Virus record (IMG/VR): IMGVR_UViG_3300046517_001864
Location: 3,880 to 67,879 of that record
DNA length: 64,000 nucleotides
DNA from: a virus
Direction: 5' to 3' (one strand)
Part shown: in pieces, positions 1 to 26,166 of the stretch
Numbering within the stretch: position 1 is the first letter of the stretch
Layout of the letters: each line of letters starts with the position of its first letter
Notes under the pieces: generated by a model
Databases searched by the model: none
Seen by the model: the letters and a program-made list of their open reading frames with translations, nothing else
Told to the model about the DNA's origin: nothing
Translations under genes and position numbers: made by a program

Positions 1-460
1 CCACGTGTACATCGCCACGGTCCACCACGTGGTAACCATGTCCCGGGATTTCTCCACAAACATTATCTTCTGACGCAGCCACGCCTGCGTTAAAGGTTCC
101 GTGTACGGGAATATCGTAAACGGTCTCACCGTAGGCAACGCGACGAAGTAACCATCGAGATCCGCTTGGCCCATTGATGATACATCCATCGAATGAGCTA
201 TCTCCAGATGGACATGTTTCGTATCGAACGTCCTGCCCTGCCCGTCTCGACATAGATTGCATTCGTACAACTCCTTCGGATCTCGGGTATACACGTATGG
301 GACGAAATGCTTCGACTTGTCGAGCCAATACAACACATCTCCCGCACAGCGGTCCCACTCCTGCTCCCCGAGCTGAGCGTAGATCTGCTCACGCTCCTTG
401 GCAGAACACCTCGCGAGGTATTCGACTAATTCTCCGTTAAGTTCCAGCGTAGAAGCCATC
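1..460 (-). CDS. hypothetical protein, 5' part only (continues beyond window start); not in ORF track because no stop in window
   Basis: ATG at 460..458 on minus strand; open frame to position 1 (about 153 codons, MASTLELNGELVEYLARC...); globular-looking composition; no clear SD. Confidence 0.3.
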
Positions 461-740
461 GGTAGACTTTACTATACAACCCCATCGGATACAGGGAGTA
501 GTGAAACCACATCCCAAACTCAGAATGACGAATCCGCTCCCGGGATTTCTTGAGGTAGTACTTCAAATACACCCTTGGGGTGGGCATCTTTGGTCCAGCG
601 AAGGTCGGATTTTTACGATAGTTCTCCAACCTCCGACGTTCCGCGATGTACTGTTCGTAATCATTCAACGGACGGGGCACCCGCCAGAACAGAAACTTCC
701 CCCGGAGTAATTCAAACTGATACTTGTAGTATTGCGTCAT
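426..740 (-). CDS. hypothetical protein (104 aa, Tyr/Lys/Arg-rich)
   Basis: ORF in the leftward block; start ATG overlaps stop of upstream cupin gene (ATGA overlap at 737..740). Confidence 0.45.
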   Translation of the reverse strand: MTQYYKYQFELLRGKFLFWRVPRPLNDYEQYIAERRRLENYRKNPTFAGPKMPTPRVYLKYYLKKSRERIRHSEFGMWFHYSLYPMGLYSKVYRWLLRWNLTEN

Positions 741-1138
741 GACCGACCGTCATCCTCCACCAATTCCTTGCTCTCCTCAATCCTCGTCACATCCGCGTCG
801 GAGTGAGGGGTGCTCACTTCAAGCAGGAGCGATCCGTCCCCTCCGAAGCTCCAGAACCGGTGGGGAGTACCTGGAGGTAGAGACAGTACATCTCTCCTCC
901 ACCCGGCGAGTACTGTATCAAAACGTTTGTCCCCAATATAATACTCAACTCTTGTAAGTCCATCAAGAGCAATAAACGTCTCGTGCTTAATCTCGTGATA
1001 ATGCAACGAACACTGAAATCCAGGAGTGATCCAAAGAAGTTTCGAACAGTACTTTTCATTGTTTACTAGAACCTCCTCCAGCCCCCACCGCTTCGCGACG
1101 TACTCTCGCGTCTCTAGCCCACTTTCGTAGCTTGACAC
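737..1138 (-). CDS. cupin-fold protein, candidate sugar(-phosphate) isomerase/epimerase
   Basis: Canonical cupin motif 1 G(X)5HXH(X)4E(X)6G in 'GFQCSLHYHEIKHETFIALDG' and motif 2 PXGXXH in 'PPGTPHRF'. ORF-track start at 1327 would overlap the kinase gene by 214 nt with a junk-like N-terminus. Proposed GTG start at 1138, 26 nt inside the kinase 3' end. Confidence 0.6.
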   Translation of the reverse strand: MSSYESGLETREYVAKRWGLEEVLVNNEKYCSKLLWITPGFQCSLHYHEIKHETFIALDGLTRVEYYIGDKRFDTVLAGWRRDVLSLPPGTPHRFWSFGGDGSLLLEVSTPHSDADVTRIEESKELVEDDGRS

Positions 1139-1935
1139 TCTGCTACCTCCTTGGCTTTCGCCATAACTTCCTCCACGGTAGCCGTAGCTGTCCACGGCTT
1201 CTCCACCACCACCGCTGCTGCGGCATTCGCAAACGGAAGGGCGTGCAGTCCAACACAGGATGCGTAGCTGTAAGCGGCGAGGACTGTATCGCCTGCACCA
1301 CAGACGGAAACGACTTGCTTTGCCCATGCGGGGTATTCCTCCACGATCTTTCCCTGTTCGAGTCGAGCGATTCCCGCGCCGCTCCGCTTCAGTACCACCG
1401 AAGGCCGGTGATCGTAATCGAACTTGAACTGCTCGTACTCATGCTGGTTCGGGAACAACGTCACCCCGTGCCAAGACCACGCCTCAGGGGAACTTTTCGA
1501 ATCCACAAAGGTTCGTACCCCGAGCTGGTACACCCATCCTCGGACGTCATAGTTGATCGAACCTTTCCCGTAATCGCTCACGACAACCGCATCCGGTTGC
1601 CAGTGGAGCACCGCTCGATCCAACCGTTCCAGGTCAATCGGATCCACTTCGTCGTATTCATCCCACCGTGCGAGCTGTTGGGTTCCGACCATCAACCGAT
1701 TCTTCTCCGGTACCCGAATCAGAGTTCCCTCGGAGGAATTCCACCCATACTCCACTCGAATTTCCGCCCCGAGGGATTGAAGATTCGCGGATACATTTAA
1801 CGCACCACCGCCGAAGAACTCTTGTTTGGTTACTTTCACCACCGGGATAGGAGCCTCAGGGGAGATTCGAGTCGTGGTACCGATGTAATACCGATCATAC
1901 ATCGCGTCGCCGATTACGAGGATTTTAGGTTTCAT
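1114..1935 (-). CDS. hldA: D-glycero-beta-D-manno-heptose-7-phosphate kinase (HldE N-terminal domain / HldA-like, PfkB family), standalone
   Basis: '[31 protein letters not shown]' closely matches E. coli HldE '[31 protein letters not shown]'; 'VVSDYGKG', 'GAGDTV' PfkB signature and '[10 protein letters not shown]' are all colinear with HldE domain I; strong SD (AAGGAAGGGA) before ATG. Confidence 0.85.
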   Translation of the reverse strand: [273 protein letters not shown]

Positions 1936-2215
1936 TCCCTTCCTTTCGCCTGAAGGTTCGTACCCGAGGGAGGATGGGAGGCATACATCCTTTCGGCGGG
2001 GAGCCGTCCTCGGGTACTCTCACTAGGCGGGATCAAACAACAACATCAATAACTCGTGTGCGTTCCATACGTAGCTGTCGTATGGGTTCCATAAACAGTA
2101 TTATACTGTTGGACCGGGGCCGTTTCCTCACGTCTTTGCCGTTCGCGTTCCTCTTCTTCCTTCCGACGACGCTCGTCTTCAAGGATCGTAAACATTGCTA
2201 TCACAGCTCCAGCCA

Positions 2216-2524
2216 TTACGTTACCTTCGGTCCCTCAACCGCATCGTCCCACTTCACCGGGGCGAGGTTATCATTCCCCCAGCTCATCGTCTTCCCACCC
2301 TCGTACCGGATATGCAACGGATACGGCTCAGTCCAACCTGGGGCGATGTGAATCCCCGACCACTTATCCGACTTCGCTTCGAGCATCACCCACCGGGGGA
2401 AGAACTGGCTGACCCCCGCGTGAACCAACTCTGCGTCGAGCGGGACCTGATCCTCGTGGTCCTGGTAGTAGTGCACGAGGAGCTTCAGCAGACTGTTCGC
2501 GTCAAACTCAATCCGCTTCGTCAT
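2216..2524 (-). CDS. hypothetical protein (102 aa)
   Basis: ORF in leftward block; stop overlaps start of upstream 72-aa gene (ATGA). Confidence 0.45.
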   Translation of the reverse strand: MTKRIEFDANSLLKLLVHYYQDHEDQVPLDAELVHAGVSQFFPRWVMLEAKSDKWSGIHIAPGWTEPYPLHIRYEGGKTMSWGNDNLAPVKWDDAVEGPKVT

Positions 2525-2739
2525 ACACTAAACACCCGTTTGATATCAAAATTCACCCGGATCGGGGTATCATCCTTCCAGCTAGGGGATTCTGCCATAA
2601 TCGCAAACATCCCCTGCTGAGAGGTATTGACCTGCAACCCCACCGGCATGGCATCGTCGGGGATGTCCCCGGTATCCTTCGTATAATCCCGAAAGATTGC
2701 CATGATCGCGTCGATAGGGATGATGATCTTCCTACGCAT
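2521..2739 (-). CDS. hypothetical protein (72 aa)
   Basis: ORF in leftward block, coupled to downstream gene. Confidence 0.4.
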   Translation of the reverse strand: MRRKIIIPIDAIMAIFRDYTKDTGDIPDDAMPVGLQVNTSQQGMFAIMAESPSWKDDTPIRVNFDIKRVFSV

Positions 2740-2853
2740 GACTATTCACCCCAGATTATTGAGAACAACCTAATCAACGTGTCCATTACTTTCCTTTCGT
2801 GAGCCGACCGAACAGGTACCCGATCGCAGCCGCAAAAATCAACGGTAGTTCCA

Positions 2854-3024
2854 TTACTTCGCCTTTCCTTTCTTTACATCTTTCTTATGTTTCGCTTCCA
2901 TCGCAGCGCCTTTGGCAGTTTCCTTACTCCCATGCATCGCCCCGATAGAATTCATGATCTTATACGGCACATCCGACTGAGCGCCGTACTTACGCTTGAG
3001 CTCCTCTTCGAGAAACTTCGGCAT
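2854..3024 (-). CDS. small Lys-rich protein (56 aa, MPKFLEEELKRKYGAQ...KKGKAK), below ORF-track cutoff
   Basis: ATG overlaps the stop of the upstream gene (TAATG at 3022..3026); followed by further TAATG-coupled micro-ORFs (22-aa hydrophobic peptide MELPLIFAAAIGYLFGRLTKGK at about 2787..2855). Confidence 0.3.
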   Translation of the reverse strand: MPKFLEEELKRKYGAQSDVPYKIMNSIGAMHGSKETAKGAAMEAKHKKDVKKGKAK

Positions 3025-3410
3025 TAGACCCTCTCCTTCCCAGGAGGAATCTTCCCAGATGGGATATGATCCCCATATCCGGAATGATTATCACTCCGAT
3101 AACTCTGCTTCTCCTGCGTATCCTGATCATCCCCACCAACCGTCTGAGGTTCAGGTTGACCCTGGCCACCCGCACGAGGAGTTGGACCGAAGCCAATTTC
3201 CACCAACCGCTTGCATTCCCAGCAATACGGCTGGGACGGCCCGATGCTTTGTCCACAGGACGGGCATTTCTTAAACGGCGTCCCCCGCGTAGCCGCGAAC
3301 ACTTGCTCGTCCGTCGGCTTCTGAATGTTACTTTTCTGTTGTTTTGCCACTTGTTTGATCCTTTGTGAGTTTAGCGGACTCGTCCGCTTCGGTCTGGGCG
3401 GCGTGCCCAA
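3024..3410 (-). CDS. zinc-ribbon protein (CPSCGQ...CWECK); true start probably downstream of ORF-track start (possible GTG near 3350)
   Basis: Cys-X2-Cys...Cys-X2-Cys; 83-nt overlap with upstream gene if ORF-track start is used. Confidence 0.4.
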   Translation of the reverse strand: MGTPPRPKRTSPLNSQRIKQVAKQQKSNIQKPTDEQVFAATRGTPFKKCPSCGQSIGPSQPYCWECKRLVEIGFGPTPRAGGQGQPEPQTVGGDDQDTQEKQSYRSDNHSGYGDHIPSGKIPPGKERV

Positions 3411-3759
3411 AGACTATCTCAACCACTATAACTTCCATATTCGTCTTACTACCCGGTATACACAACGGAACTGGGTATGGAACCGGCCCGGTGTGATCCA
3501 CCCGGAGCTTCAACTTCTTCGTTGGCTCGTTACATTGCGGACATTGCTGCATCTGTATCGCCAGCATCGGAGCTCCACAGCCATTCCATCCATGTGGCGA
3601 ACCACATCCACATCTCGCCAGAGCAAGATTCGGCGGCCACTGATGTCCGTTCGAACATTCTAATGTCGAACATGGAGTGAGTTTAACTGTTTGCGGAAAC
3701 TCCACCGGAGTCGCCTGGGGAGTTGCTGGAGCTTCTTGGGGTACGGCTGCCTCGACCAT
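3328..3759 (-). CDS. Cys-rich hypothetical protein (143 aa), first gene of leftward operon
   Basis: ATG at 3759 lies immediately downstream of a consensus promoter -10; multiple CxxC/CGCG motifs. Confidence 0.45.
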   Translation of the reverse strand: MVEAAVPQEAPATPQATPVEFPQTVKLTPCSTLECSNGHQWPPNLALARCGCGSPHGWNGCGAPMLAIQMQQCPQCNEPTKKLKLRVDHTGPVPYPVPLCIPGSKTNMEVIVVEIVFGHAAQTEADESAKLTKDQTSGKTTEK

Positions 3760-3765
3760 GAATAT

Positions 3766-3794
3766 ATTATAACACGTTCATGAAGTTTTGTCAA
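3766..3794 (-). promoter_or_regulatory. sigma70-type promoter with perfect consensus hexamers (TTGACA-17 nt-TATAAT) reading leftward
   Basis: Minus-strand sequence GTTGACAAAACTTCATGAACGTGTTATAAT; -35 at 3789..3794, -10 at 3766..3771; predicted start about 3759, i.e. at or adjacent to the ATG (leaderless or near-leaderless). Confidence 0.6.
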
Positions 3795-3922
3795 CTATCA
3801 ACACTTTACACCGAGCGAGCGATGAATTACCGCTGAGCTTCGCGAGCGAGGCGGCATTTTTTCCCCCGTTTCCCGTATTAACCCTGCTTAATCTTGGATT
3901 ATTATTCGACGCACGAACGGAT

Positions 3923-3992
3923 TTATCAACAACTTACGACGACGCCGCAAGGGGAAAAATCGATCGGATCGGTTCTTGTAACTTGTTGATAA
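3923..3992. repeat. 15-bp imperfect inverted repeat (TTATCAACAACTTAC / GTAACTTGTTGATAA) with 40-bp spacer in the divergent control region
   Basis: 14/15 complementary arms at 3923..3937 and 3978..3992. Confidence 0.45.
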
Positions 3993-4842
3993 TCCCTCCG
4001 ACCGAATTTCTAAAAATTTTTTCATTTTCAATTCTAACCTGCAGAAAACACGGGGTGCTAGCGCCTGTGTGGGAGCCATCGCGGACGAAACTGATTCGCC
4101 CTGCCCCGGCACTCGCTGGGTACCATCAGGTACCGTGGTCGTAGTACCAGGAGTATGTCTCGTGGGCGTGAGGGTGTAGGCCAGCCGTACCAATACTGTC
4201 GTACGTCCCACGTACGTATGACCTTCGTACTATGGGAGCACCCGCATATGGGGGCACCTGGGTAGTACCTTCGGTTCATATTGGGCTGTTTCGCCTTTTG
4301 TTCTACTTGACACCGGAATTTGTTACATGGTAAGAATGACCATGCACGAAAATACCGTTGTAATGGTCACCCTTCCGGCGTCGCCAATGTCTGAAGCCGA
4401 TCGGCGAATAGCTGATGAATTCCCAGGAGTTTTCACGACTGGCACGTCTCGCCTAGCCTGCACCCAGGTTGAGCTTGACTGGCTCACTGGAGGCGAAGAA
4501 ACGGCGAATGAGTAAAATTTACCGCCCAGGTTTACCGATTCGGGTAAAATTGACAAGGCGAACAATGGGCGAAGGCGTTGAAAACAAACGAGTTAAAGTT
4601 TGGCAAGGGGCTTGCACTTGTTTGGGCCGTCCGGCGAAACAAGCAAGCGAGTTAACCTGTAAGCCTTGCTGAGTGTAGCTGGATGTTCTGAGAGTCTCTT
4701 AGTGGGACGTTGTAGAGAGTACGGCATGGCTGGAGTGGAATCCAGATGGTTATGCACGATGAATGCCATGTGTAACGCCACACGTCCGCACTAAGGGGCT
4801 TTCGGATCGACAAACACGTGATGGCTCATTGGAGGGTATCCA

Positions 4843-5100
4843 ATGATTAAACCAAGACGTCAATACGCGGTATTTGTGAAACGTGGTCGTAAGTGGTCAC
4901 GCATCTCGCATGGATCGTATACGCTAGAAGCATGTCGCAGGCTGTATCAGGATGTGTTGCTAGCGGGATTCATGAACGGTGTGGCGACTGAACTGAAGCC
5001 AGTGTCGAAGATACCAGAGGATCGCTCTGTGATCGACGAGAACTGGCAGTGGTTTAAGATCGCGATTCATGCAACGGTTACAAACGCTCACGCAGCGTAG
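4843..5100 (+). CDS. hypothetical early protein (85 aa)
   Basis: First plus-strand gene after the 1.1-kb control region; SD GGAGGG 7 nt upstream. Confidence 0.5.
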   Translation: MIKPRRQYAVFVKRGRKWSRISHGSYTLEACRRLYQDVLLAGFMNGVATELKPVSKIPEDRSVIDENWQWFKIAIHATVTNAHAA

Positions 5101-5169
5101 GTGAATCGTCCGCAATGCAGGGGAGGTACCCTGCAATGAGTCATAACGTCATAGCAAAGGAGAACTACC

Positions 5170-5538
5170 ATGTCTACAATGGCAACGGTACGGCCAACAG
5201 GGGCAGCCCCTCTCGAAGGGACACCTGCAACGGCCAAACTGGCACCTAACGTGGAAGCGGTGTTGTTCAATGAAACGAAGGAATCGACTCCTACCAAGGG
5301 GATTGAAGCCGACGTGGAGATTGACGAAAAGGGGAATTACCATATTCTCATCCCTTCCACAATGGATTTTGGCAGAATCGGTGTGACCGAAAACGGTAAC
5401 ACATACGTCGGCGTGAAAGCCGATGCGATTACGCTGAAATTCACGGGCAAGAAAGCCGACGGTACGGACCACACACCGAAGGAGTTAGAGACGTATTCCA
5501 TCTCGTTCCGGCTTGGTCTGCGCATGAAGGCGAAGTAG
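5170..5538 (+). CDS. hypothetical early protein (122 aa)
   Basis: SD AAAGGAGAA upstream of ATG. Confidence 0.5.
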   Translation: MSTMATVRPTGAAPLEGTPATAKLAPNVEAVLFNETKESTPTKGIEADVEIDEKGNYHILIPSTMDFGRIGVTENGNTYVGVKADAITLKFTGKKADGTDHTPKELETYSISFRLGLRMKAK

Positions 5539-5772
5539 AAGCATACACAACACCTTTGCGGGTGGGGGCGATAGTACACCCGCGTAGTCTAAACGTGCCA
5601 CACCGTAGCCTGTAGGATCGGTGTGCCTGTCACAAGCCAGGAACAAACGCGAGTGGACACTGGTATAGGTATCAGTGGTGGAAACAGGTGTGTACATGCC
5701 TGTATGCCACAACCTGTGGGGGTACACGTGACTCCACAGCTCGACATCCGAAACGAGGGAAAGGAGTGTAGC

Positions 5773-6204
5773 ATGGCTACGCAGGATAGTACACGTGTGT
5801 TCAAGCTTCGGCTTGCGTCCGCTTCAATACGTAACGCGTCGGTAGTGATGACGGGTGACCGGTTGAATGCGTTGATTGCAGCCAAACAGATTGATCGAAG
5901 TAACAAGTATCTCAAATCCGAGCGTGGGTTTAACACGTCGATGCGAGTGTCGTCAGATCGTCCATCGCAAGTGAAGCGGTGGTCGGAAGGTATGACGGTT
6001 GGGTTTCAACGTACCACGTATGGTGCGGAGACGTCAGCGAAAGCGTATCGTCACGCTACAGCAGCATCGGAATGGCATCGGCGCAAGCGCGAGCAGGAGT
6101 TACTCGCGGATGCTAAACGACGTGGCGAGGTTACCACAACCACGAAATCACGTGCGTTACGAGTACCACCTGGACGGACCGTTGCGGAGGTGTTGTTTGC
6201 ATGA
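5773..6204 (+). CDS. hypothetical early protein (about 143 aa; ORF-track start 5623 probably too far upstream)
   Basis: Internal ATG at 5773 preceded by GAAAGGAG. Confidence 0.45.
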   Translation: MATQDSTRVFKLRLASASIRNASVVMTGDRLNALIAAKQIDRSNKYLKSERGFNTSMRVSSDRPSQVKRWSEGMTVGFQRTTYGAETSAKAYRHATAASEWHRRKREQELLADAKRRGEVTTTTKSRALRVPPGRTVAEVLFA

Positions 6205-6368
6205 CCACCAAAGCGGTCGTACGTCGTCAGCTTAACGAGTGGCTTGCACGTAACGAGAGTGAGTTGGATCGGCAGTTACGGGAAATCCGTGCGAAGAACC
6301 AACAACTGAGATTTATCCGTGATACGGAACGTCGGGTGAAAGCGCGAGCTAAAGGAGCATCGGTATGA
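6201..6368 (+). CDS. small coiled-coil protein (55 aa), below ORF-track cutoff
   Basis: ATGA overlap with upstream gene; helical Arg/Glu-rich sequence. Confidence 0.3.
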   Translation: MTTKAVVRRQLNEWLARNESELDRQLREIRAKNQQLRFIRDTERRVKARAKGASV

Positions 6369-6756
6369 GCGATCTTTCGTTGTATCTTGAATCCCTGCGG
6401 CTCTCCGCGATACTCGTGCGAACGTTTGTCGGGATTACCACAACGGTGATGATTGGAATTTCTGCAATGGAAGGAATCGTCGCGTATGCCATTCGCTAAG
6501 TATCTGTACGATGCGGCATGTAAGGTGTGGGGTTGGCCCGCAGTGTGGGAATCACTCTCATCTGGTGAGCAGGAGAAATGGGAGGAGTACGCTAGGTTAT
6601 GCTCCGCTTACTTCGTTCCGTAACTCCCGCGTGTATCACGTCGGACACGTCGTTGTTCGAGTACTTCTGGTTGCTTCGGATTCAAGGATGGCCGATGTGG
6701 TGGGGGCTACTTCCCACGTGGGCTATCACACGAATTTTGGAAAGGAGAATTGTAAT

Positions 6757-9934: not shown

Positions 9935-10181
9935 GGAAGATATGATCGGTTTAAAACGAGCGTTACGTATTGCAAAGGAAAAAGAAGGATACGAACAATG
10001 TTTTCGAAAAGATCATGGGCTTGGGTCGCCTTGTACATATGACGGTAAAACAGCTCCAGCGGGGTTTATTATCTGCCCAATTGTTCAGTTCTACCCAAAA
10101 CCAACGTACATGTTCCACTCAGTGAAAGATTTTCTTAAAAGTTCTGATATAGCCTATCGTAAAAAAGGCTGGATCAAATGA
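9921..10181 (+). CDS. hypothetical protein (86 aa)
   Basis: ORF in early block, overlaps upstream stop. Confidence 0.35.
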   Translation: MWCVKEDMIGLKRALRIAKEKEGYEQCFRKDHGLGSPCTYDGKTAPAGFIICPIVQFYPKPTYMFHSVKDFLKSSDIAYRKKGWIK

Positions 10182-10219
10182 TGTTCGTGAAGTACAAATC
10201 AAACTAGGAGAAATAACCA

Positions 10220-10597
10220 ATGCCAGCTCGCCAATGTCCCGAATCGACAACGATCACCGTCGCGCAAGCGTACGGACGTTCGATGTTGCAACTATCCACT
10301 CAGCTCAAACGCAACCAGCAGTTCATCGACTTCGCCATTCCCTCCGGTGCTGTGAAGTTCCTCGCCAAAGACGGCACCATCAAAACCCACAGCCCGAGTT
10401 CCAACTACGTCTTCGGTGGCCCCCGATTGATCGTCGGCGAACGCACCGTGGGACGCGTGACTTTCACTCCCACCGGTCGTGTGGCCGTGCCGACCAACGG
10501 ACAGCCGTACCTCAACGATGATGGCGGGATCTCGTACGGCACTCGTGGCATGACGGATGAATATCCGATCATGACCATGACCACGTCAGCGGCGTAA
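10220..10597 (+). CDS. hypothetical protein (125 aa)
   Basis: SD AGGAGAAATAACCAATG. Confidence 0.5.
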   Translation: MPARQCPESTTITVAQAYGRSMLQLSTQLKRNQQFIDFAIPSGAVKFLAKDGTIKTHSPSSNYVFGGPRLIVGERTVGRVTFTPTGRVAVPTNGQPYLNDDGGISYGTRGMTDEYPIMTMTTSAA

Positions 10598-10875
10598 ACA
10601 TCGGTACTCACCGAAAGGCGGCTATGCGCCGTTAAACACTCTCGCCCCGAAAGGTCGTAACTGGCCTAACGGGGCTTGTGGTGTTTTATGCTAAGCAAGT
10701 TACAGGAGATCTCCCGACGGTTGGAACTCATGCGAGTACGAGCGGCACATCTCATTAGCGTAACCGATCAGGACACAGCAGCAAATGCTCGAATTCGTTT
10801 GGAAGTGATGGATGAGGTTTTGAAAGAGTTTTGGAAAATCGTTGAACGATAGACGTAGGAATATAAAGGAGACAT

Positions 10876-12231
10876 ATGCCGCAGATTGAAATCCTCCAGG
10901 TTCGACCTGGAAATGTCGTGAGCTTTCTCGCCGAACCGCATTTGGTGCTTCAGCGGTTTAGCTACATGAACATCCATACGTTACTTCTCTTGAACAAAAA
11001 AGGCGAGGTAACGGAGCTTCGGGATTCGCAACTCAGTAAAACCGTTCCGACGGTGATGGAAAAGCTCGAAGACGCCGCAGCCTCAGAATGGCGAGAGAGT
11101 ATCGTCGGGAGCAAAACCGTTTTTGAAAAAGGTCACATGACCACCGGCGGCGGGTCGTGGATGCACATCGGAACTGATCCGGAGATTTTCGCGATGGATC
11201 GAAACGACCATGTGATTCCAGCGTTTGCGTATCTCCCTTCGAAACCCACCCCGAATCCGAACGGGCCACCCATTCCTGCGATATTCTTCGACGGGTTCCA
11301 AGCCGAATGGACAACAAATCCTTCCTCATGTCTCGGGCATCAAACGGATTATGTTCGGCAGGGGATGCAAGGTGTGCTCAACGCCGCACGGAAAATCGAT
11401 CCACAAGCAAAACTCTCACATCTGTCGGTAACCGACATCACATTCGATCCGACGCTACCCCCGGAGCGTTACCAGCTTGGATGCTCACCCTCAATGAACG
11501 CGTACGACGAACCCTCCGTGTTGATGGGGACGCCGGAGCTCCTTCCGTTTCGTTCAGCAGGATGGCATATGCATTTTCGAGGAACTACACCGCCGGTGAA
11601 TGCGGGTGATCCAGTGGATGGTTTCCATAGTGTTGATTCGAAAGAACTTGCCGCGAAGATCATCCAACTCGAAGATGCGATTCTTGGCACGGCATTGGTG
11701 AGTTTCGGCCAACATCACGTCGACCCCCGACGGAGGTTGATGTATGGTCGTGCGGGTGAATACCGGTTGGGGAAGACGCTCGAATACCGAGTGCCAGAGG
11801 TACTGATGGGATGCCATCCCGCCACGTGGAATCTGTTTTGGGACTTAGGCCGTGCGGTGTATTGGCTTGGGATGAGAGGGTTCAACTTCATCTGGGATGC
11901 CGATCCAACCGAGGTTCGAGAGGCGATCAACAACTCGAACGTGGCGTTAGCGCAGAAGATCCTTACGAAGAATATCCAGGTCCTGAATAGTATCTTCAAG
12001 TACCTCTACCGTGTGGGGCCGCTCAAGCCGACACCGGACTGGGCTCCGGATAAGATGGCTGTGAAAGCGATCCTCGAAGGTGCGAACGCGGTGTTGAACG
12101 ATCCAACAGCGGTGAGCAGGAATTGGCGGTTGGAGTCTGGCCAAACCTGGCAGAATGAAAGCCAAGGGCATCTCACCGGAACAAACTGGCGGACGTCTGT
12201 ACCAATGCTCCAAAGAGGAGAGAAACTATGA
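10876..12231 (+). CDS. large protein of unknown function (451 aa), flanked by the two GNAT-like paralogs
   Basis: SD AAGGAGACATATG; stop overlaps next gene (ATGA); no family recognised by eye. Confidence 0.6.
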   Translation: MPQIEILQVRPGNVVSFLAEPHLVLQRFSYMNIHTLLLLNKKGEVTELRDSQLSKTVPTVMEKLEDAAASEWRESIVGSKTVFEKGHMTTGGGSWMHIGTDPEIFAMDRNDHVIPAFAYLPSKPTPNPNGPPIPAIFFDGFQAEWTTNPSSCLGHQTDYVRQGMQGVLNAARKIDPQAKLSHLSVTDITFDPTLPPERYQLGCSPSMNAYDEPSVLMGTPELLPFRSAGWHMHFRGTTPPVNAGDPVDGFHSVDSKELAAKIIQLEDAILGTALVSFGQHHVDPRRRLMYGRAGEYRLGKTLEYRVPEVLMGCHPATWNLFWDLGRAVYWLGMRGFNFIWDADPTEVREAINNSNVALAQKILTKNIQVLNSIFKYLYRVGPLKPTPDWAPDKMAVKAILEGANAVLNDPTAVSRNWRLESGQTWQNESQGHLTGTNWRTSVPMLQRGEKL

Positions 12232-14857: not shown

Positions 14858-15559
14858 ATGATTCACGGACGTTTTCACGGCGTAACAATCGTCAAACTCT
14901 CGCGAGCTGAGGGGGTGGAGATGCTAGCTTACCTCGGTTGGACTCGGATGATGTATGAAAAACTCATCCGACCGAAAGCTACGACCGAAAGTCCAACGGT
15001 CAAGCGACTACTTTCCTCTGTGCATGGGATTGAAACATGTATTCGAATGTACATACCTGGCGGTGGGTGGACCCCCGTAGATGCGCTGTACCATGAACGG
15101 TTAAACCAAAACAACCTCCTCCAACCAGGAGCAGCGGATGAAGGGTTATCGATTCTGTTAGGTTTTTCCGAAGAATTCATTCGGTCCATTAGCTCATACC
15201 CGAATCTATTCTCCGCTCCAACCGTCACCCGATTGTGTAAATCCGTTGATCGAAGGTTTCCGATCCGGGAATACCACCCCAAATCCGCTACGCTCGAACA
15301 ACGAACTCATTCCATCGAGTTAGTTGTACAACTATTCCAAATCCTCTCTGGGAATAACTCCGGAGAACTTTCCGGCGCGAATGATCGACAGTTGTTGTAC
15401 AACCAATCAACCGGGTTGGTGGAGATGTTGCGGATCTCCCACGATTTGAAGAACATCATCGCAAAGATCGATCATTGGACCGAAGTACTTGGTGCAGAAC
15501 GTCATGTATCGAAAGAGTTTGTTACAAAGACATTAAACACAAGGAGTATTTGTGGTTAA
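14858..15559 (+). CDS. hypothetical protein (233 aa)
   Basis: Tightly packed between 14093 gene and amidoligase (overlaps amidoligase start by 8 nt). Confidence 0.55.
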   Translation: MIHGRFHGVTIVKLSRAEGVEMLAYLGWTRMMYEKLIRPKATTESPTVKRLLSSVHGIETCIRMYIPGGGWTPVDALYHERLNQNNLLQPGAADEGLSILLGFSEEFIRSISSYPNLFSAPTVTRLCKSVDRRFPIREYHPKSATLEQRTHSIELVVQLFQILSGNNSGELSGANDRQLLYNQSTGLVEMLRISHDLKNIIAKIDHWTEVLGAERHVSKEFVTKTLNTRSICG

Positions 15560-16757
15560 CAAGGAAAAATTCTGCGTCAACTGCCTTCGTCGGGCTCGGG
15601 ATACGGAAAAAGCTTTAAAAACCGTCCACTCCCATCCGCTACGGCTCCCGAAGGAACACTGCGCGATCTGCCATCGATGCTCTTCTTGCCGGTGTATCTG
15701 TGTCATCTGCACGAAGTGTAAAGCACGTGTTGCAATGGCCCCAACGAAGTACTGCTCGCACTGTCGGATGTGTAAGAAGTGCGACTCATGCAGGAAAATG
15801 CCGCACTACCTTTCCACCGATCGGTGGGTGGGGACGCGGACATCTTCGCTCATCAACCCGTTGAATCGTACGCTTGGGTTGGAACTTGAGATTGCAAACT
15901 GGGGTACGTTGGAGAACTACCTCATGAACTACGCTCACTACGACCGAGCGCATGATTGGTCGGTGAAGCCATCTGAATCAGAGATGGTCCTCCAACCGTT
16001 AAAAGGGGATTACTTCCTCAAAGCGATGATGGAGTTGGCCGTAACCCTTGCAAAATCAAAAGCTTCGGTGAATGAAACCTGTGCGTTACACGTACACGTC
16101 GGAGGAACGGAGTTGTCATACTGGGAACTTCGACGTCTCCTGCGGGTATACGCGAAGCTTGAGCAAGAGATATACGATTATCTCATTTTACCACATCGGA
16201 GGGACACTCCGACGGTAGTTCACTACTGTCAGATGATGACTAAGCCTCACATCCATTGTGATCGATGTGATCGGTACGATCAACAGTATCCCCGAACCCG
16301 TCGGGTGCTGGAGGATCTCCACACTACGGTAGCTCGAATGGACCGGGCGCAGACCACCACAGATCTCAAAGCATGTTTTTTGAAGATGCTGTATAACATC
16401 CCCCGACCTTCGGAGAAGTATTCGAAAGAGCATCTTCCATCTCGGCTCCAAACCCTCCAAACCCACAAAGGCGGGAGATACGAATGGTGCCGGTACGTTG
16501 GGCTCAACCTCCACGCGTGGCAGTATCGTGGTACGGTCGAATGGCGAATGAAAGAAGCCACTACCCAGCTTGACGAGCTGATCTGCTGGCCGTTGTGGTG
16601 TGGGTGGTTTGTGGAAACCATCACCAAAATGACCGAGAAAGACTCCACCCGTTGGTGGACGTTGATCGAATTCACCGAGCGGTACATGCCAAAGTATCTC
16701 ACTGCATGGGTGAGTAATAAAGTTTCGCAAAGAAAGGTAGGACCGACGTTGTCATGA
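15552..16757 (+). CDS. amidoligase of the GCS2/YbdK (glutamine synthetase-like) fold with N-terminal multi-Cys zinc-ribbon region
   Basis: 'TLGLELEIAN' (G-x-E-x-E start motif) and 'ALHVHVG' (HVHVG motif) typical of gamma-glutamyl-cysteine-ligase-2-type amidoligases; N-terminal CxxC x6 cluster. Confidence 0.55.
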   Translation: MVNKEKFCVNCLRRARDTEKALKTVHSHPLRLPKEHCAICHRCSSCRCICVICTKCKARVAMAPTKYCSHCRMCKKCDSCRKMPHYLSTDRWVGTRTSSLINPLNRTLGLELEIANWGTLENYLMNYAHYDRAHDWSVKPSESEMVLQPLKGDYFLKAMMELAVTLAKSKASVNETCALHVHVGGTELSYWELRRLLRVYAKLEQEIYDYLILPHRRDTPTVVHYCQMMTKPHIHCDRCDRYDQQYPRTRRVLEDLHTTVARMDRAQTTTDLKACFLKMLYNIPRPSEKYSKEHLPSRLQTLQTHKGGRYEWCRYVGLNLHAWQYRGTVEWRMKEATTQLDELICWPLWCGWFVETITKMTEKDSTRWWTLIEFTERYMPKYLTAWVSNKVSQRKVGPTLS

Positions 16758-17450: not shown

Positions 17451-18482
17451 ATGTGTGGAATATTCGGCTTTAGCCGTGTAACGGATGTGACCAAACAGAT
17501 GGCCATTCCGTTGATGTGGGAGATGGAGGATCGAGGACGGGACTCTTGGGGCTGCTCCAACGGAATCGAATGGATCAAACAGATCGGTCCGATCACCAAA
17601 ACGTGGCGGAAATACGAATCCGAATGGCACCAGTGGGAACGAGCAATCTTTCACACCCGTGCTGCTTCGCAGGGGAAGGTCTCCATCGAAAACCAACACC
17701 CGTTCCGTATTGACCATACGGAAGAGGATCAATCCGTCCGCACCCTCGTCGGAATCCACAACGGTGTCGTCTCCAATCATGACCAACTTAACGCCAAGTA
17801 CAAACGGGATTTTGATTGTGATACCCCGCATATCTACATGGCCCTCGCGGGGTTCTCTCCTACTCAGGAGATTCACGGGTATGGTAACCTGGCGTGGTAT
17901 GATTACTCGACCACAAACCCGACTCCAATCCTGCACTTCCTCCACTTTAACGCAGGGAACCTGAACGTCGCGAAGCTCGAATCTGGTGAGATGGTGTTCT
18001 GTTCCACGAAAGATCCCATCGATCGTGCTGCGGATTTCGCAGGAACCAAAATCGATCGGTACTTTCACCTGGAAGGGGATAAGATTTACTGGGTGGAACT
18101 GAACTACCAGGATGTCCCAGGATCGGACATGCTCATCGCTGGGCCGAAGCAATCCTTCGGCGGGAGGTCGATTCAAGGAACTGGTTGCGCTACTCCTTGG
18201 GATGGGCACCGTCCAGTTGGGTTACCCTTGTACGAGCACATCGCCGGAGCGAATCCCCGCAGGATGGGTCCTTCCCAAGTCCGGAACACGAATATATCCG
18301 AACTTGGCTCAGAGGATCGACAGAACAACATCTGCCTTAACAATCAATGCAAGAACAAAGTGAAACAATCTCGGCGGAAACAGCTCCTCTGTGAGACCTG
18401 CCTCGTAGCGGTAAAACAAAACCTCGCTTACATGACCACAATTCATGATCGGGTTCGTGGCCGAATGGGAGGTGCTGAATGA
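17451..18482 (+). CDS. class-II (Ntn) glutamine amidotransferase domain protein with C-terminal Cys cluster
   Basis: N-terminus MCGIFGF (catalytic Cys2 as in PurF/AsnB/GlmS); C-terminal CLNNQC...CETC. Confidence 0.65.
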   Translation: MCGIFGFSRVTDVTKQMAIPLMWEMEDRGRDSWGCSNGIEWIKQIGPITKTWRKYESEWHQWERAIFHTRAASQGKVSIENQHPFRIDHTEEDQSVRTLVGIHNGVVSNHDQLNAKYKRDFDCDTPHIYMALAGFSPTQEIHGYGNLAWYDYSTTNPTPILHFLHFNAGNLNVAKLESGEMVFCSTKDPIDRAADFAGTKIDRYFHLEGDKIYWVELNYQDVPGSDMLIAGPKQSFGGRSIQGTGCATPWDGHRPVGLPLYEHIAGANPRRMGPSQVRNTNISELGSEDRQNNICLNNQCKNKVKQSRRKQLLCETCLVAVKQNLAYMTTIHDRVRGRMGGAE

Positions 18483-19471: not shown

Positions 19472-20320
19472 TTGAACATTGGTTACATAGGAGAATATAT
19501 GGGAATACACGTCATCGGGCCGCAGGACTGGGAAACAGTCATTGCTTTAAATGACATGCTTCGGCATGTCCCGGAGGAAGGGACGTTCAAGCTGGGCGGA
19601 CGTCATTTCGAAGCGCAGGGGCAGTTCAAACGGTTTGACAAAGCCGGGGTCCCGACCGTCGAGTGGACCACGAATCTCACTACAGCGAAAGGATGGGTCC
19701 GAAACGGAGCAGCGGTGCTTGGACGAGACCGGTACCATTCTCGGGGGGAGGATATTGTTCTAGTATCCCACACTGCTGATATCACAGACGCTTGGGAAAG
19801 TAAGTCCGTCTGGACCAAGTTTGTCCCCTCCCAAGCCGAATGGCGATTCCATATCGTTAACGGGCAGTCCATCTCCCGGGATCTGAAGGTCTTCAACCGA
19901 CCCGGGCAGGGGCGAGGGTCCCTCGCGAGCATTAGAGCCCGCGCATGGGATTGGTCGGCCCGACATGATGTTGAGCCCCCAGCCGAGGCTCGCCGAGCTG
20001 CTGTAGCGGCTGTGGACGCGTTGGAGGGGTATACCCACGGTGCGGTCGACCTGCTTATCGACATGGAGTTCCGTCCAGTCGTGCTTGAAGTCAACCGCTG
20101 TCCGGGGATGGATGCCTACACCCGTGAGCGGTGGTGTAACGCGATTCGAAAGTTTGTACGATCTCACGGGCGGGGTAACGCGTCCGCTGAAACAGCAGCG
20201 GCCCGTCCACCAGTTCCAGCTTGGGTTCATCGACCCTCGACGGTCATGGCTCGGACCGAAACCGGGCGAATTTCGTCCCGGTCGAGAGAGGAATTCTACG
20301 AAGGCGTTGAGGTTGTATAA
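19472..20320 (+). CDS. ATP-grasp fold protein (candidate amide ligase)
   Basis: 'GAVDLLIDMEFRPVVLEVNRCPGMD' matches the ATP-grasp 'D...ExN..PG' C-terminal motif; alternative start at 19499 (SD AGGAGAA). Confidence 0.45.
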   Translation: MNIGYIGEYMGIHVIGPQDWETVIALNDMLRHVPEEGTFKLGGRHFEAQGQFKRFDKAGVPTVEWTTNLTTAKGWVRNGAAVLGRDRYHSRGEDIVLVSHTADITDAWESKSVWTKFVPSQAEWRFHIVNGQSISRDLKVFNRPGQGRGSLASIRARAWDWSARHDVEPPAEARRAAVAAVDALEGYTHGAVDLLIDMEFRPVVLEVNRCPGMDAYTRERWCNAIRKFVRSHGRGNASAETAAARPPVPAWVHRPSTVMARTETGRISSRSREEFYEGVEVV

Positions 20321-25803: not shown

Positions 25804-26166
25804 ATGAGGAATACTCTAACACAGGTTGAAGATCGGATATGCGAAGCGAAAGCCTCGACCCATAGTTCCGATAGAGCATCTCTTCTCACACGTCGTAGGT
25901 GGTTGCGGACACTGGTAATGTTGTCCTTAGGTGTATTCGGGATTCGTAATGCATCCTCAGGTGCTTCCACCCCAACGTGCGAGGATACGATTAACAAGTT
26001 TCAATGTTTGTTCAACGCGTGGGTGGAGCAGGTGAAGGAAAACAATCCTAACATCCTCGATGCGAAGCATCCCACAGCTATCCAAGACGAAATCGCCACG
26101 TGGCAAGTGGTACGTCACGAGTGGCGGGGGTTTGAGAAGCAGATTAACAAGATGTATGGAATTTAA
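25804..26166 (+). CDS. hypothetical protein (120 aa)
   Basis: SD GGAGAAATAATG; stop overlaps polymerase start (TAATG). Confidence 0.45.
   Translation: MRNTLTQVEDRICEAKASTHSSDRASLLTRRRWLRTLVMLSLGVFGIRNASSGASTPTCEDTINKFQCLFNAWVEQVKENNPNILDAKHPTAIQDEIATWQVVRHEWRGFEKQINKMYGI

What the first reader, a model, noticed from the sequence alone, without database searches (positions are those of the whole stretch)
1114..1935. Phage-encoded standalone heptose-7-phosphate kinase (HldA / HldE domain I)
The protein is colinear with the kinase domain of E. coli HldE, with near-identical active-site segments (DRY...[17 protein letters not shown], GAGDT). It lacks the adenylyltransferase domain. A heptose-activation enzyme is unusual in a phage. 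It implies the virus makes or tops up nucleotide-activated heptose for a phage-directed glycosylation.
Basis: partly seen in the sequence, partly recalled or inferred. Interest (0 to 1): 0.75.

Follow-up and report, generated by a model that had tools for sequence, protein, structure and literature searches.

The report
Phage heptose-sugar activation gene cassette
The gene is a real, compact phage version of the bacterial heptose kinase HldA, but it is one part of a widespread viral kinase, cupin and nucleotidyltransferase cassette for making activated heptose, in which the cupin probably replaces the usual first enzyme, GmhA.

Summary
**Observation:** confirmed. Window 1114-1935 (minus strand) is a 273-aa ORF. 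Its best matches by sequence and by fold are HldE domain I and HldA, and it carries the DRY...RISPEAP, SDYGKG and GAGD motifs.

**Interpretation:** partly supported.
- The protein has no fused adenylyltransferase. An HldC-like nucleotidyltransferase gene lies four genes downstream in the same operon, just past the window's left edge.
- The kinase is translationally coupled to a 133-aa cupin (737-1138) of the D-lyxose/D-mannose isomerase family.
- Kinase, cupin and nucleotidyltransferase occur together in 51 of 54 well-flanked IMG/VR viral loci. These include T4-like cyanophages, where the genes are already annotated. They usually sit with a true HldD epimerase and often a HAD/GmhB phosphatase, but never with a SIS-type GmhA.
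- Kinase-cupin and cupin-kinase-nucleotidyltransferase fusion proteins exist.

**Limits on novelty:** heptose genes in phages are not rare. At least 572 IMG/VR contigs carry a relative, and the literature already lists rfaE as a phage auxiliary gene.

**Still unknown:** the acceptor of the sugar. No glycosyltransferase was found in the window.

**Also seen:** in this uncultured ~68-kb clade the cassette sits inside the packaging module, splitting the large terminase gene in two.

The parts
1114..1935 (-). [quoted passage not shown]
   Evidence: - TIGR02198: 158 bits, E 2.6e-46.
- PfkB Pfam hit.
- PDB HldA 4e84: E 5.5e-23.
- 35% identical to E. coli HldE residues 13-304.
- AF2 pLDDT 95.9, and the top 7 Foldseek hits are all HldA.
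- phrog_8133: E 4.5e-36.
- The catalytic motifs GG/N47, P162-N-x-x-E166 and G213-A-G-D216 are invariant in 39 relatives.
737..1138 (-). 133-aa cupin of the D-lyxose/D-mannose isomerase family. Predicted sedoheptulose-7-phosphate isomerase, a functional analogue of GmhA.
   Evidence: - GTG start at 1138, 6 nt after an AAGGAGG Shine-Dalgarno sequence, overlapping the kinase 3' end by 25 nt. The same 133-aa gene is called on identical contigs.
- Family profile against PDB: D-lyxose isomerases 2y0o (E 2.4e-10), 7nzo (1.7e-8) and 3kmh (1.5e-4).
- Invariant H46, H48, K51, E53 and H93 align with the metal-ligand motifs HxH...KxETF...H of those enzymes.
- AF2 pLDDT 94.2.
- Co-occurs with the kinase and nucleotidyltransferase in 51 of 54 viral loci.
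- Fused to the kinase and/or nucleotidyltransferase in 14 of the 150 best family representatives, and to a HAD in one more.
426..740 (-). 104-aa basic ORF of unknown function between the cupin and the terminase gene. Not part of the conserved cassette.
   Evidence: - The start ATG overlaps the cupin stop (ATGA).
- No Pfam, NCBIfam or PHROG hit.
- Found only in near-identical contigs and absent from relatives L008 and L009.
1..459 (-). First 153 codons of a 284-aa gene for the ATPase domain of the large terminase. The gene runs off the left edge of the window. The HldC-like nucleotidyltransferase gene follows it outside the window.
   Evidence: - L001 is 99.98% identical to window 1-4216 and extends 1657 bp further.
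- The family profile matches the T4 gp17 ATPase domain (3ezk, E 5.6e-5).
- L001:4609-5109 is a CTP_transf_like protein with best NCBIfam hit rfaE_dom_II, 80 bits.
1936..2045 (-). 110-nt intergenic leader upstream of the kinase, with a 10-bp GUACCCGAGG/CCUCGGGUAC stem and a GGAAGGGA ribosome-binding site.
   Evidence: Sequence. The fold has a z-score of -1.87, which is not significant. No Rfam match.

Best explanation

**Proposed steps**
1. The cupin encoded immediately downstream isomerises sedoheptulose-7-P to D-glycero-D-manno-heptose-7-P. It is an Mn/Zn-type aldose-ketose isomerase of the D-lyxose/D-mannose isomerase family. It would do the job of the unrelated SIS enzyme GmhA.
2. This kinase phosphorylates O-1 to give the 1,7-bisphosphate.
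3. A phosphatase removes the 7-phosphate. None is encoded next to the cassette in this phage, so the host GmhB or another phosphatase is presumed. Other viruses carry a HAD or GmhB gene at this position.
4. The HldC-like nucleotidyltransferase, encoded just outside the window, makes NDP-heptose. ADP-heptose is most likely, because its GMSTT motif lacks the Arg of the promiscuity motif (F/L)xxGRSTT. No HldD is present, so the product stays in the D,D form.

**Status of each claim**
- Shown: family membership of the kinase and the nucleotidyltransferase, operon structure, and conservation of the triad.
- Inferred: the cupin's substrate, the source of the phosphatase, and the use of the product.

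The product is presumably a heptosyl donor for the host envelope or the virion. The genes lie in the late packaging/morphogenesis operon.
For: **Kinase identity:**

**Operon**
- The kinase and cupin genes overlap by 25 nt, and the cupin has a strong Shine-Dalgarno sequence.
- The order kinase, cupin, TerL-ATPase, nucleotidyltransferase is kept in relatives with only 42-49% kinase identity.

**Nucleotidyltransferase**
- rfaE_dom_II is the best NCBIfam hit (80 bits).
- It is 36% identical to the HldE C-terminal domain and has the HIGH motif.

**Heptose identity of the wider cassette**
- 58 of 80 viral loci carry an SDR that passes the equivalog cutoff for ADP-glyceromanno-heptose 6-epimerase (318.9 bits against 274.6).
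- 7 loci carry a true GmhB between the cupin and the nucleotidyltransferase.

**Cupin as the isomerase**
- Its closest solved relatives catalyse xylulose/lyxose and fructose/mannose interconversion. From established carbohydrate chemistry, this has the same C2-C4 stereochemistry as sedoheptulose-7-P to glycero-manno-heptose-7-P.
- The metal ligands are invariant.
- No SIS GmhA was found within 10 kb of the kinase in 92 viral loci, or within 6 kb of the cupin in 80 genomic loci.
- In cyanophage cassettes the other enzymes (nucleotidyltransferase, kinase, HAD phosphatase, HldD) are all present. This leaves only the isomerase step and only the cupin unassigned.
- Rosetta-stone fusions exist: kinase-cupin, cupin-kinase, kinase-NTase-cupin, cupin-kinase-NTase, NTase-cupin and cupin-HAD.

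**NTP motif rule:** PMC11573728.
Against: - The kinase scores below the curated TIGR02198 cutoff (158 against 345). It is about 43 residues shorter than HldE domain I over the aligned span, so a changed substrate range cannot be excluded.
- Characterised D-lyxose isomerases use unphosphorylated sugars.
- The Foldseek ranking of the cupin model does not discriminate. The CapF cupin domain (an NDP-sugar epimerase) and oxalate decarboxylase rank above the D-lyxose isomerases.
- In 53 of 80 cellular genomes the cupin has no heptose gene within 6 kb.
- Commentaries on Tang et al. state that homology searches did find an isomerase in viruses, so GmhA-type enzymes exist in some viruses.
- This phage encodes no HldD, no recognisable 7-phosphatase next to the cassette, and no glycosyltransferase. 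The heptose assignment here therefore rests on homology to cassettes that do have them.
- No enzyme assay exists.
Confidence: 0.62

Rival explanations
1. The phage only boosts the late steps. The host GmhA supplies heptose-7-P. The cupin is not an isomerase of sedoheptulose-7-P but modifies the sugar later, for example as a CapF-like or RmlC-like epimerase acting on NDP-heptose.
For: - The best Foldseek hits of the cupin model are the cupin domain of S. aureus CapF (E 1.3e-9), ahead of the D-lyxose isomerases (2.4e-7).
- Cassettes in other viruses sit among sugar-tailoring enzymes: carbamoyltransferase, sulfotransferases and 2OG oxygenase.
Against: - The sequence profile favours D-lyxose isomerases by eight orders of magnitude over Cap5F (2.4e-10 against 0.023).
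- The KxETF and His/His/Glu/His motifs match the isomerases.
- Sequence identity in the fold alignments is highest for the D-lyxose isomerases (21-24% against 15-16%).
- The cupin is fused to, or adjacent to, the kinase and GmhB in DPANN archaea with no GmhA nearby.
Confidence: 0.2
2. The cassette of this clade activates a hexose rather than a heptose. The cupin would act as a phosphomannose isomerase (fructose-6-P to mannose-6-P). The kinase would make beta-mannose-1,6-bisphosphate, and the nucleotidyltransferase would make an NDP-beta-mannose.
For: - The cupin has weak hits to the C-terminal domain of type II phosphomannose isomerase (E 8.5e-4; GMP_PMI 2.6e-4).
- JGI names its homologues 'mannose-6-phosphate isomerase-like'.
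- This clade lacks HldD, the one enzyme that needs the C6-C7 side chain.
Against: - The kinase and the nucleotidyltransferase match the heptose-specific families best.
- The homologous cassette in most other viruses includes a true HldD and GmhB.
- No NDP-beta-mannose pathway of this kind is known to me.
Confidence: 0.08
3. A phosphate-free three-enzyme route. The cupin isomerises free sedoheptulose, the compact kinase phosphorylates O-1 of free heptose, and the nucleotidyltransferase activates it. No 7-phosphatase would then be needed.
For: - Characterised D-lyxose isomerases act on free sugars (established knowledge; structures 2y0o and 7nzo).
- About half of the viral cassettes, including this one, have no adjacent phosphatase.
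- The kinase has lost about 43 residues relative to HldE.
Against: - The other half of the homologous cassettes carry a GmhB, HAD or NT5C-type phosphatase placed between the cupin and the nucleotidyltransferase.
- From general knowledge, free sedoheptulose is not a normal bacterial metabolite.
Confidence: 0.08
4. A generic PfkB sugar or nucleoside kinase with no link to heptose.
For: The Pfam hit is only to the general PfkB family, and the score is below the TIGR02198 cutoff.
Against: - The RISPEAP signature is present.
- There is a 130-bit gap to the next PfkB family.
- There is a ten-order gap between HldA and the ribokinases in the fold search.
- The gene is constantly linked to HldC-like, HldD and GmhB genes.
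Confidence: 0.02

Closest known systems
HldA (B. cenocepacia, PDB 4E84) and the N-terminal kinase domain of E. coli HldE (RfaE domain I, TIGR02198)
   Same: - Ribokinase/PfkB fold.
- The DRY...RISPEAPxPV lid signature.
- The SDYxKG, PNxxE and GAGD motifs.
- Colinear, 35% identity to E. coli HldE.
   Different: - About 43 residues shorter, through three deletions.
- Scores 158 bits against a cutoff of 345.
- Not fused to the nucleotidyltransferase.
- Encoded by a phage next to a cupin instead of being accompanied by GmhA.
The 'LPS gene' cassette of T4-like cyanophages (P-SSM2 PSSM2_309-313; S-CAM3 gp149-151)
   Same: The same three families are clustered on one strand: HldC-like nucleotidyltransferase, compact HldA-like kinase (about 33% identity) and cupin (34% identity).
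   Different: - Cyanophages add a small HAD phosphatase, an HldD-type epimerase and a carbamoyltransferase, and the cassette lies next to tail-fibre genes.
- Here none of these is present, and the cassette is embedded in the terminase region of an unrelated ~68-kb phage with an SU10-type portal.
GmhA (SIS-fold sedoheptulose-7-phosphate isomerase)
   Same: The proposed reaction and position in the pathway, as the first step feeding the kinase.
   Different: No homology. The cupin has a beta-barrel with a His/His/Glu/His metal site, against the SIS alpha/beta fold of GmhA. It is a functional analogue only, and this is untested biochemically.
D-lyxose/D-mannose isomerases (B. subtilis YdaE 2Y0O, Thermofilum 7NZO, E. 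coli O157 Z5688 3KMH; Pfam PF07385)
   Same: The best sequence-profile relatives of the cupin. They share the YCxK, HxH, KxETF and H motifs, and the stereochemistry of the ketose to manno/lyxo-aldose conversion.
   Different: - The viral cupin is 35-50 residues shorter.
- The known enzymes use free sugars.
- The Pfam score is below the gathering threshold (19 against 20.8).
Phage UDP-arabinose pathway for arabinosyl-hydroxycytosine DNA (RB69, DLP3, HY126; PMC13326640)
   Same: The same four-step logic encoded by a phage: phosphosugar isomerase, anomeric kinase, HAD phosphatase, nucleotidyltransferase.
   Different: - Different enzyme families and a different sugar.
- That pathway is linked to glycosyltransferases and a dCMP-modifying thymidylate-synthase homologue, which serve DNA modification.
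- None of these is found here.

Membership tests
HldA / RfaE domain I heptose-7-phosphate kinase (TIGR02198) | Ribokinase (PfkB) fold | tested here: met
   Pfam PF00294 E 6.5e-13. AF2 model pLDDT 95.9, with top fold hits HldA and then ribokinases.
HldA / RfaE domain I heptose-7-phosphate kinase (TIGR02198) | N-terminal heptokinase signature D-R-Y...R-I-S-P-E-A-P-x-P-V | tested here: met
   Residues 14-33 read [20 protein letters not shown]. They align residue for residue with HldE 22-41 and with 4e84. D14, E27 and P31 are invariant in 39 relatives.
HldA / RfaE domain I heptose-7-phosphate kinase (TIGR02198) | PfkB catalytic motifs: GG/N anion hole, NxxE, and GAGD with the catalytic Asp | tested here: met
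   G43, N47, P162-N163-x-x-E166 and G213-A-G-D216 are invariant in the family and identical in E. coli HldE.
HldA / RfaE domain I heptose-7-phosphate kinase (TIGR02198) | Score at or above the curated equivalog cutoff | tested here: not met
   158.2 bits against a cutoff of 345. The shortfall is explained by three deletions totalling about 43 residues. TIGR02198 is still the best family by more than 130 bits.
HldA / RfaE domain I heptose-7-phosphate kinase (TIGR02198) | Genomic association with other ADP-heptose pathway genes | tested here: met
   An HldC-like nucleotidyltransferase lies in the same operon. In the wider viral family, HldD passes its own cutoff in 58 of 80 loci, and GmhB or a HAD phosphatase is present in about 40 loci.
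HldA / RfaE domain I heptose-7-phosphate kinase (TIGR02198) | [quoted passage not shown] | not testable with these tools
   This needs an enzyme assay. The paper describing the substrate contacts of HldA was not in the library, so contact residues were not compared.
Bifunctional HldE | Kinase and adenylyltransferase domains fused in one polypeptide | tested here: not met
   The ORF stops after the kinase domain. The nucleotidyltransferase is a separate 166-aa gene, with three genes between it and the kinase.
HldC / RfaE domain II nucleotidyltransferase (TIGR02199), for L001:4609-5109 | Cytidylyltransferase-like fold with the HxGH motif and best match to the heptose-1-P adenylyltransferase family | tested here: met
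   PF01467 E 2.8e-10. TIGR02199 80 bits, the best hit but below its cutoff of 181.5. NGAFDLLHSGH aligns to HldE NGVFDILHAGH, with 36% identity.
D-lyxose/D-mannose isomerase cupins (PF07385), for the neighbour at 737-1138 | Cupin barrel with His/His/Glu/His metal site and the YCxK...HxH...KxETF motifs | tested here: met
   Profile against PDB: 2y0o E 2.4e-10 and 7nzo E 1.7e-8, with these motifs aligned. The residues are invariant in 49 homologues. AF2 gives a cupin barrel with pLDDT 94.2.
D-lyxose/D-mannose isomerase cupins (PF07385), for the neighbour at 737-1138 | Score above the Pfam gathering threshold; fold search singles out the family | tested here: inconclusive
   PF07385 scores 19.0 bits against 20.8 for the window protein, although many homologues carry the precomputed PF07385 hit. 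Foldseek ranks generic cupins (CapF, OxdC) above the D-lyxose isomerases.
GmhA (SIS sedoheptulose-7-P isomerase) | SIS fold, or homology to GmhA | tested here: not met
   No ORF in the window or in any of the 172 related loci matches E. coli GmhA (phmmer), and there is no SIS Pfam hit. The cupin is proposed as an analogue of GmhA, not a member of its family.

The most novel reading that the evidence does not exclude
The small cupin next to the kinase defines a new class of sedoheptulose-7-phosphate isomerase, unrelated to GmhA. It would complete a self-contained NDP-heptose pathway used by many phages, including long-sequenced cyanophages where it is labelled 'cysteine dioxygenase'. The same pathway would operate in DPANN archaea and candidate-phyla bacteria, where the cupin also occurs fused to HldA and HldC as a cupin-type tridomain enzyme.
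Probability: 0.55. Interest if true: 0.65.

Novelty: new variant of a known kind. Interest (0 to 1): 0.45.

Why it matters
- **Medical relevance of the product.** ADP-heptose is the donor for the LPS inner core. Its pathway is an antibiotic-adjuvant target, and it is the agonist of the vertebrate innate-immune sensor ALPK1.
- **An open question.** Commentaries on Tang et al. 2024 state that the role of heptose biosynthetic enzymes in viruses is unsolved (PMC11573728).
- **What this locus adds.**
  - The viral pathway is a compact, recurrent three- to five-gene cassette.
  - Its first step is probably done by an unrecognised isomerase family. If so, homology screens based on GmhA would undercount heptose producers, and GmhA inhibitors would not touch them.
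  - It also exposes annotation errors that have spread through cyanophage RefSeq records.
- **Testability.** The claim can be tested directly by complementing gmhA and hldE mutants.
- **What is not remarkable.** The kinase itself is a new member of a known viral auxiliary-gene family.

Tried and rejected
- **Megablast of window 1-6000 against INPHARED phages:** no match. The portal and PolA have no relative above 24-26% identity among isolates, so host and taxon stay unknown.
- **Search for a glycosyltransferase, SIS isomerase, HAD phosphatase or HldD in the window.** I ran Pfam on about 90 ORFs, plus PHROGs and NCBIfam on subsets. None was found.
- **The His_Phos_1 protein at 34585-35511 as a GmhB substitute.** Its only hits are generic (cobC-like, 39 bits), and it is not seen near the cassette in any relative. 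This remains pure speculation.
- **Fold search of the cupin model:** high confidence but not discriminating.
- **The search for related loci with the 49-sequence cupin alignment:** I repeated it with the 5-sequence alignment.
- **Regulatory RNA upstream of the kinase:** no Rfam hit, and the fold z-score is -1.87. There are no tRNAs.
- **DNA glycosylation as the purpose:** no thymidylate-synthase-like hydroxymethylase or glycosyltransferase was found, so I did not favour it.
- **Substrate-contact residues of HldA:** the structural paper was not in the library.
- **Domain type of the published 'tridomain isomerase/kinase/nucleotidyltransferase':** could not be established from the papers held.
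- **Cluster look-up of the fusion proteins:** gave no names or organisms.
- **Suspected paralogy of the two small ORFs upstream of the kinase:** not supported by BLASTP.
Full report
**1. The observation**

The finding's coordinates match one ORF exactly: 1114..1935 on the minus strand, ATG start, 273 aa. It carries the quoted segments:
- D14[19 protein letters not shown]33
- S120-DYGKG125
- G213-AGDT217

Evidence for the family assignment:
- Pfam sees only the general PfkB family (E 6.5e-13).
[quoted passage not shown] Every other PfkB family scores 25 bits or less.
- The best solved structure by sequence is B. cenocepacia HldA (4e84, E 5.5e-23).
- BLASTP against E. coli K-12 HldE gives a colinear alignment to residues 13-304, with 35% identity and E 2e-35.
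- An AlphaFold2 model built on 39 homologues has mean pLDDT 95.9. Its seven best PDB matches are all HldA chains (E about 1e-23). The best ribokinase follows at 7.6e-14.

It is therefore not met.

Two caveats apply. The score is well below the curated equivalog cutoff of 345. The protein is also about 43 residues shorter than HldE domain I over the aligned span, through three deletions. It belongs to a compact viral subfamily (phrog_8133, profile length 246, E 4.5e-36).

**2. The operon around it**

Reading the minus strand, the kinase's last 25 nt overlap a second gene. That gene starts at GTG 1138, 6 nt after an AAGGAGG Shine-Dalgarno sequence. It encodes a 133-aa cupin (737-1138). Gene callers on identical metagenome contigs call the same 133-aa product.

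Next comes a 104-aa ORF found only in this phage and near-identical contigs (426-740). After it, a gene starts at 459 and runs off the window.

A JGI contig, L001, is 99.98% identical to window 1-4216 and extends 1657 bp further. It shows the rest of the operon:
- A 284-aa protein.
- A 166-aa cytidylyltransferase-like protein. Its best NCBIfam hit is rfaE_dom_II, the heptose-1-phosphate adenylyltransferase family (80 bits, E 1.4e-22). It is 36% identical to HldE residues 342-473, including the NGxFDxLHxGH motif.
- A class I SAM methyltransferase.

So the 'missing' HldC is present as a separate gene, 2.7 kb downstream and just outside the window.

The 284-aa protein is the ATPase domain of a large terminase. 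Its family profile matches T4 gp17 (3ezk, E 5.6e-5).

In relatives, a separate ~285-aa ORF further downstream matches terminase nuclease domains (5oea, E 0.003) and is followed by a portal of the SU10 type. The window itself holds an 874-aa ORF at 60384-63008, which I took to be the portal on the strength of weak tblastn hits to annotated portal and head-tail adaptor genes of cyanobacterial podophages; it had no Pfam hit. An SU10_adaptor hit was found in the pooled scan of window and L008/L009 ORFs. The cassette therefore lies in the late packaging/morphogenesis operon. In this clade the terminase gene is split into two ORFs, with the nucleotidyltransferase between them.

**3. How general this is**

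*Close relatives of the kinase.* A search of 5.8 billion proteins found thousands of hits. The best 120 are nearly all short, 224-361 aa, and none is long enough to carry a fused nucleotidyltransferase domain. Seventeen of them sit on contigs of 64-71 kb. An identical protein is on a 67,879-bp contig, which is probably the source of the window. Two distant members, L008 (49% identity) and L009 (42%), keep the order kinase, cupin, TerL-ATPase, (0-2 genes), nucleotidyltransferase..., TerL-nuclease, portal.

With HMMs built from my alignments, I looked at 54 loci that have at least 3 kb on both sides of the kinase. In 51 of them both the cupin and the HldC-like nucleotidyltransferase lie on the same strand within 3 kb.

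*Other neighbours in the 80 IMG/VR loci.*
- In 58 loci there is an SDR that passes the equivalog cutoff for ADP-glyceromanno-heptose 6-epimerase, HldD (318.9 bits against 274.6). This anchors the cassette in heptose chemistry.
- A phosphatase is adjacent in about half of the loci. It is a true GmhB in 7, a small HAD in 23, and an NT5C-type HAD in 10.
- Carbamoyltransferases, sulfotransferases, a GT25 glycosyltransferase and tail-fibre genes also occur.

*Cyanophages.* The T4-like cyanophages P-SSM2 and S-CAM3 carry the cassette in this order: carbamoyltransferase, nucleotidyltransferase, kinase, 'phosphoheptose isomerase', 'cysteine dioxygenase', nucleotide-sugar epimerase, tail fibre. Two of these labels look wrong:
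- The 'phosphoheptose isomerase' has the DxDGT...GKP...DD motifs of a HAD phosphatase.
- The 'cysteine dioxygenase' is the cupin, 34% identical to the one here.

**4. What the cupin is**

A profile of five cupins from phages of both kinds matches D-lyxose ketol-isomerases best: B. subtilis YdaE 2y0o (E 2.4e-10), Thermofilum 7nzo (1.7e-8) and E. coli O157 3kmh (1.5e-4). The YCxK, HxH, KxETF and distal His motifs are aligned. H46, H48, K51, E53 and H93 are invariant in 49 homologues.

These enzymes interconvert D-xylulose with D-lyxose and D-fructose with D-mannose. From established carbohydrate chemistry, these are 2-ketoses with the same C3/C4 configuration as sedoheptulose, converted into aldoses with the manno/lyxo configuration at C2. 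This is the reaction GmhA performs on sedoheptulose-7-P.

Evidence that the cupin fills the GmhA role:
- No SIS-type GmhA was found within 10 kb of the kinase in any of 92 viral loci, nor within 6 kb of the cupin in 80 loci from GTDB genomes (phmmer with E. coli GmhA).
- In the cyanophage cassettes every other step is assigned. Only the isomerase step and the cupin are left over.
- Fusion proteins link the cupin physically to the pathway. An HMMER scan of 1.84 billion representatives gave 4053 family members at E <= 1e-10. Among the best 150, I found 8 kinase-cupin, 3 cupin-kinase, 1 kinase-NTase-cupin (587 aa), 1 cupin-kinase-NTase (606 aa), 1 NTase-cupin and 1 cupin-HAD.
- Woesearchaeota and Nanoarchaeota genomes encode kinase-cupin fusions followed by GmhB.

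I therefore propose that the cupin is a non-orthologous replacement of GmhA.

Evidence against this proposal:
- The Foldseek ranking of the cupin model (pLDDT 94.2) puts the CapF cupin domain and oxalate decarboxylase above the D-lyxose isomerases.
- Known D-lyxose isomerases use free sugars.
- In 53 of 80 genomic loci the cupin has no heptose gene nearby.
- Commentaries say that Tang et al. did find isomerase homologues in some viruses.

I found no paper in the held library that links a cupin or a lyxose isomerase to heptose synthesis. I could not read the Science paper itself.

**5. The most likely mechanism**

1. Sedoheptulose-7-P is isomerised to heptose-7-P by the cupin (inferred).
2. The kinase phosphorylates O-1 to give the beta-1,7-bisphosphate (family membership shown, activity inferred).
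3. The 7-phosphate is removed. This phage has no adjacent phosphatase, so the host GmhB or an unidentified enzyme is presumed.
4. The HldC-like enzyme makes NDP-heptose.

The nucleotidyltransferase motif here reads RQGGMSTT. The published hallmark of NTP-promiscuous enzymes is (F/L)xxGRSTT, with Arg at the fifth position (PMC11573728). Here that position is Met, as it is Cys in E. coli, so ADP-heptose is the likeliest product.

No HldD is encoded in the window, so the D,D epimer would be made.

The use of the product is unknown. No glycosyltransferase was detected among about 90 ORFs. Two things make heptosylation of the host envelope or of virion proteins the most plausible purpose: the cassette lies in the late operon here, and it lies next to tail-fibre genes in cyanophages. 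This is inference only. The literature offers host O-chain/LPS modification as the usual guess for phage rfaE genes (PMC7029224) and calls the role of viral heptose enzymes unsolved.

**6. Verdict**

The interpretation needs three corrections:
- The enzyme is not functionally alone. It has a nucleotidyltransferase partner in the operon.
- Heptose genes are not rare in phages.
- No GmhA or GmhB is present. Instead a cupin, tightly coupled to the kinase, probably supplies the substrate.

The kinase is a new member of a known viral auxiliary-gene family. The system is a variant of the ADP-heptose pathway whose first enzyme appears to be of a different, so far unrecognised, family. In this uncultured ~68-kb phage clade with an SU10-type portal, it is built into a split terminase locus. 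No isolate has a portal or PolA more than about 24-26% identical.

Noticed in passing
window 1-459 (-), continuing in L001:3758-4612; nuclease half seen in L012:7233-8096, L008:13396-14247 and L009:15086-16027: The large terminase of this phage clade is encoded as two separate ORFs. One is an ATPase domain of about 285 aa (T4 gp17-like, E 5.6e-5). The other is a nuclease domain of about 285-313 aa (5oea, E 0.003). The HldC-like nucleotidyltransferase lies between them, and in some members a methyltransferase and small ORFs do too. I did not establish whether the two halves work as a split enzyme.
   Followed up: partly
L001:3758-4612 (window 1-459 holds the N-terminal part): The terminase ATPase protein has an N-terminal extension of about 115 aa with an invariant C67-x2-C70 ... 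H84-x4-H89 pattern in three relatives. It looks like a zinc-finger motif, which is not typical of TerL.
   Followed up: no
L011:5716-6060 and 6041-6397 (P-SSM2 PSSM2_311 and 312); L010:5710-6030 and 6011-6367 (S-CAM3): These RefSeq annotations look wrong. The 'phosphoheptose isomerase' is a roughly 110-aa HAD phosphatase with DIDGT...GKP...DD motifs. The 'cysteine dioxygenase' (also the label of phrog_7851) is the D-lyxose-isomerase-like cupin.
   Followed up: partly
window 10876-12231, 15552-16757, 17451-18482, 19472-20320 (+): A cluster of two COOH-NH2 ligase/amidoligase genes (phrog_3815; Pfam Amidoligase_2), a class II glutamine amidotransferase and a RimK-like ATP-grasp protein (phrog_2599). 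It resembles the phage peptide-ligase gene sets described for phiEco32-like phages (from memory; not checked).
   Followed up: no
window 26166-28838 (+): An 890-aa family A DNA polymerase with an N-terminal uracil-DNA-glycosylase-superfamily domain and a 3'-5' exonuclease domain. The nearest phage relatives are about 24-26% identical.
   Followed up: no
window 29392-29853 and 31878-32243 (+): A NUDIX hydrolase, and a 121-aa protein matching the N-terminal domain of dATP/dGTP diphosphohydrolase (PF18909, E 1e-29). No PurZ-like or deazaguanine genes were seen in the Pfam scans.
   Followed up: no
window 34585-35511 (-): A 308-aa histidine-phosphatase-superfamily protein (His_Phos_1, E 1.4e-16) is the last gene of the long minus-strand late operon. 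It is the only phosphatase-like protein found in the window. Nothing links it to the heptose cassette.
   Followed up: partly
window 2216-2524 and 2521-2739 (-): Two small ORFs (102 and 72 aa) directly upstream of the kinase are conserved at that position in all clade members examined (L007-L009, L012-L016). They have no family hit and are not detectably similar to each other.
   Followed up: partly
L001:5138-5839; also L009:14509-15138, L012:6308-7033, L013:14060-14791: A class I SAM methyltransferase (Methyltransf_11/23) follows the nucleotidyltransferase in four clade members, with 57% identity between L001 and L009. In L001 it has a C-terminal zinc-ribbon-like CPKC...CKNC. Its target is unknown and could be the sugar.
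   Followed up: partly
L043:10770-11906 and L089:1701-2906 (jumbo-phage contigs): Here the cupin is the C-terminal part of a roughly 380-400-aa protein. The N-terminal region is cysteine-rich and contains an HNH-like motif (HVHHIDYNKKN). In L089 the HAD and nucleotidyltransferase ORFs are also extended by extra domains.
   Followed up: no
L016 (65.8-kb IMG/VR contig), 9950-11774: One clade member has the kinase followed directly by the terminase ATPase gene. My HMMs detect no cupin or nucleotidyltransferase there, so the triad is not universal even within the clade.
   Followed up: no
window 33464-33988 (+): A 174-aa SPFH/Band 7 domain protein (E 4.3e-18) is encoded at the end of the plus-strand early/middle block.
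   Followed up: no
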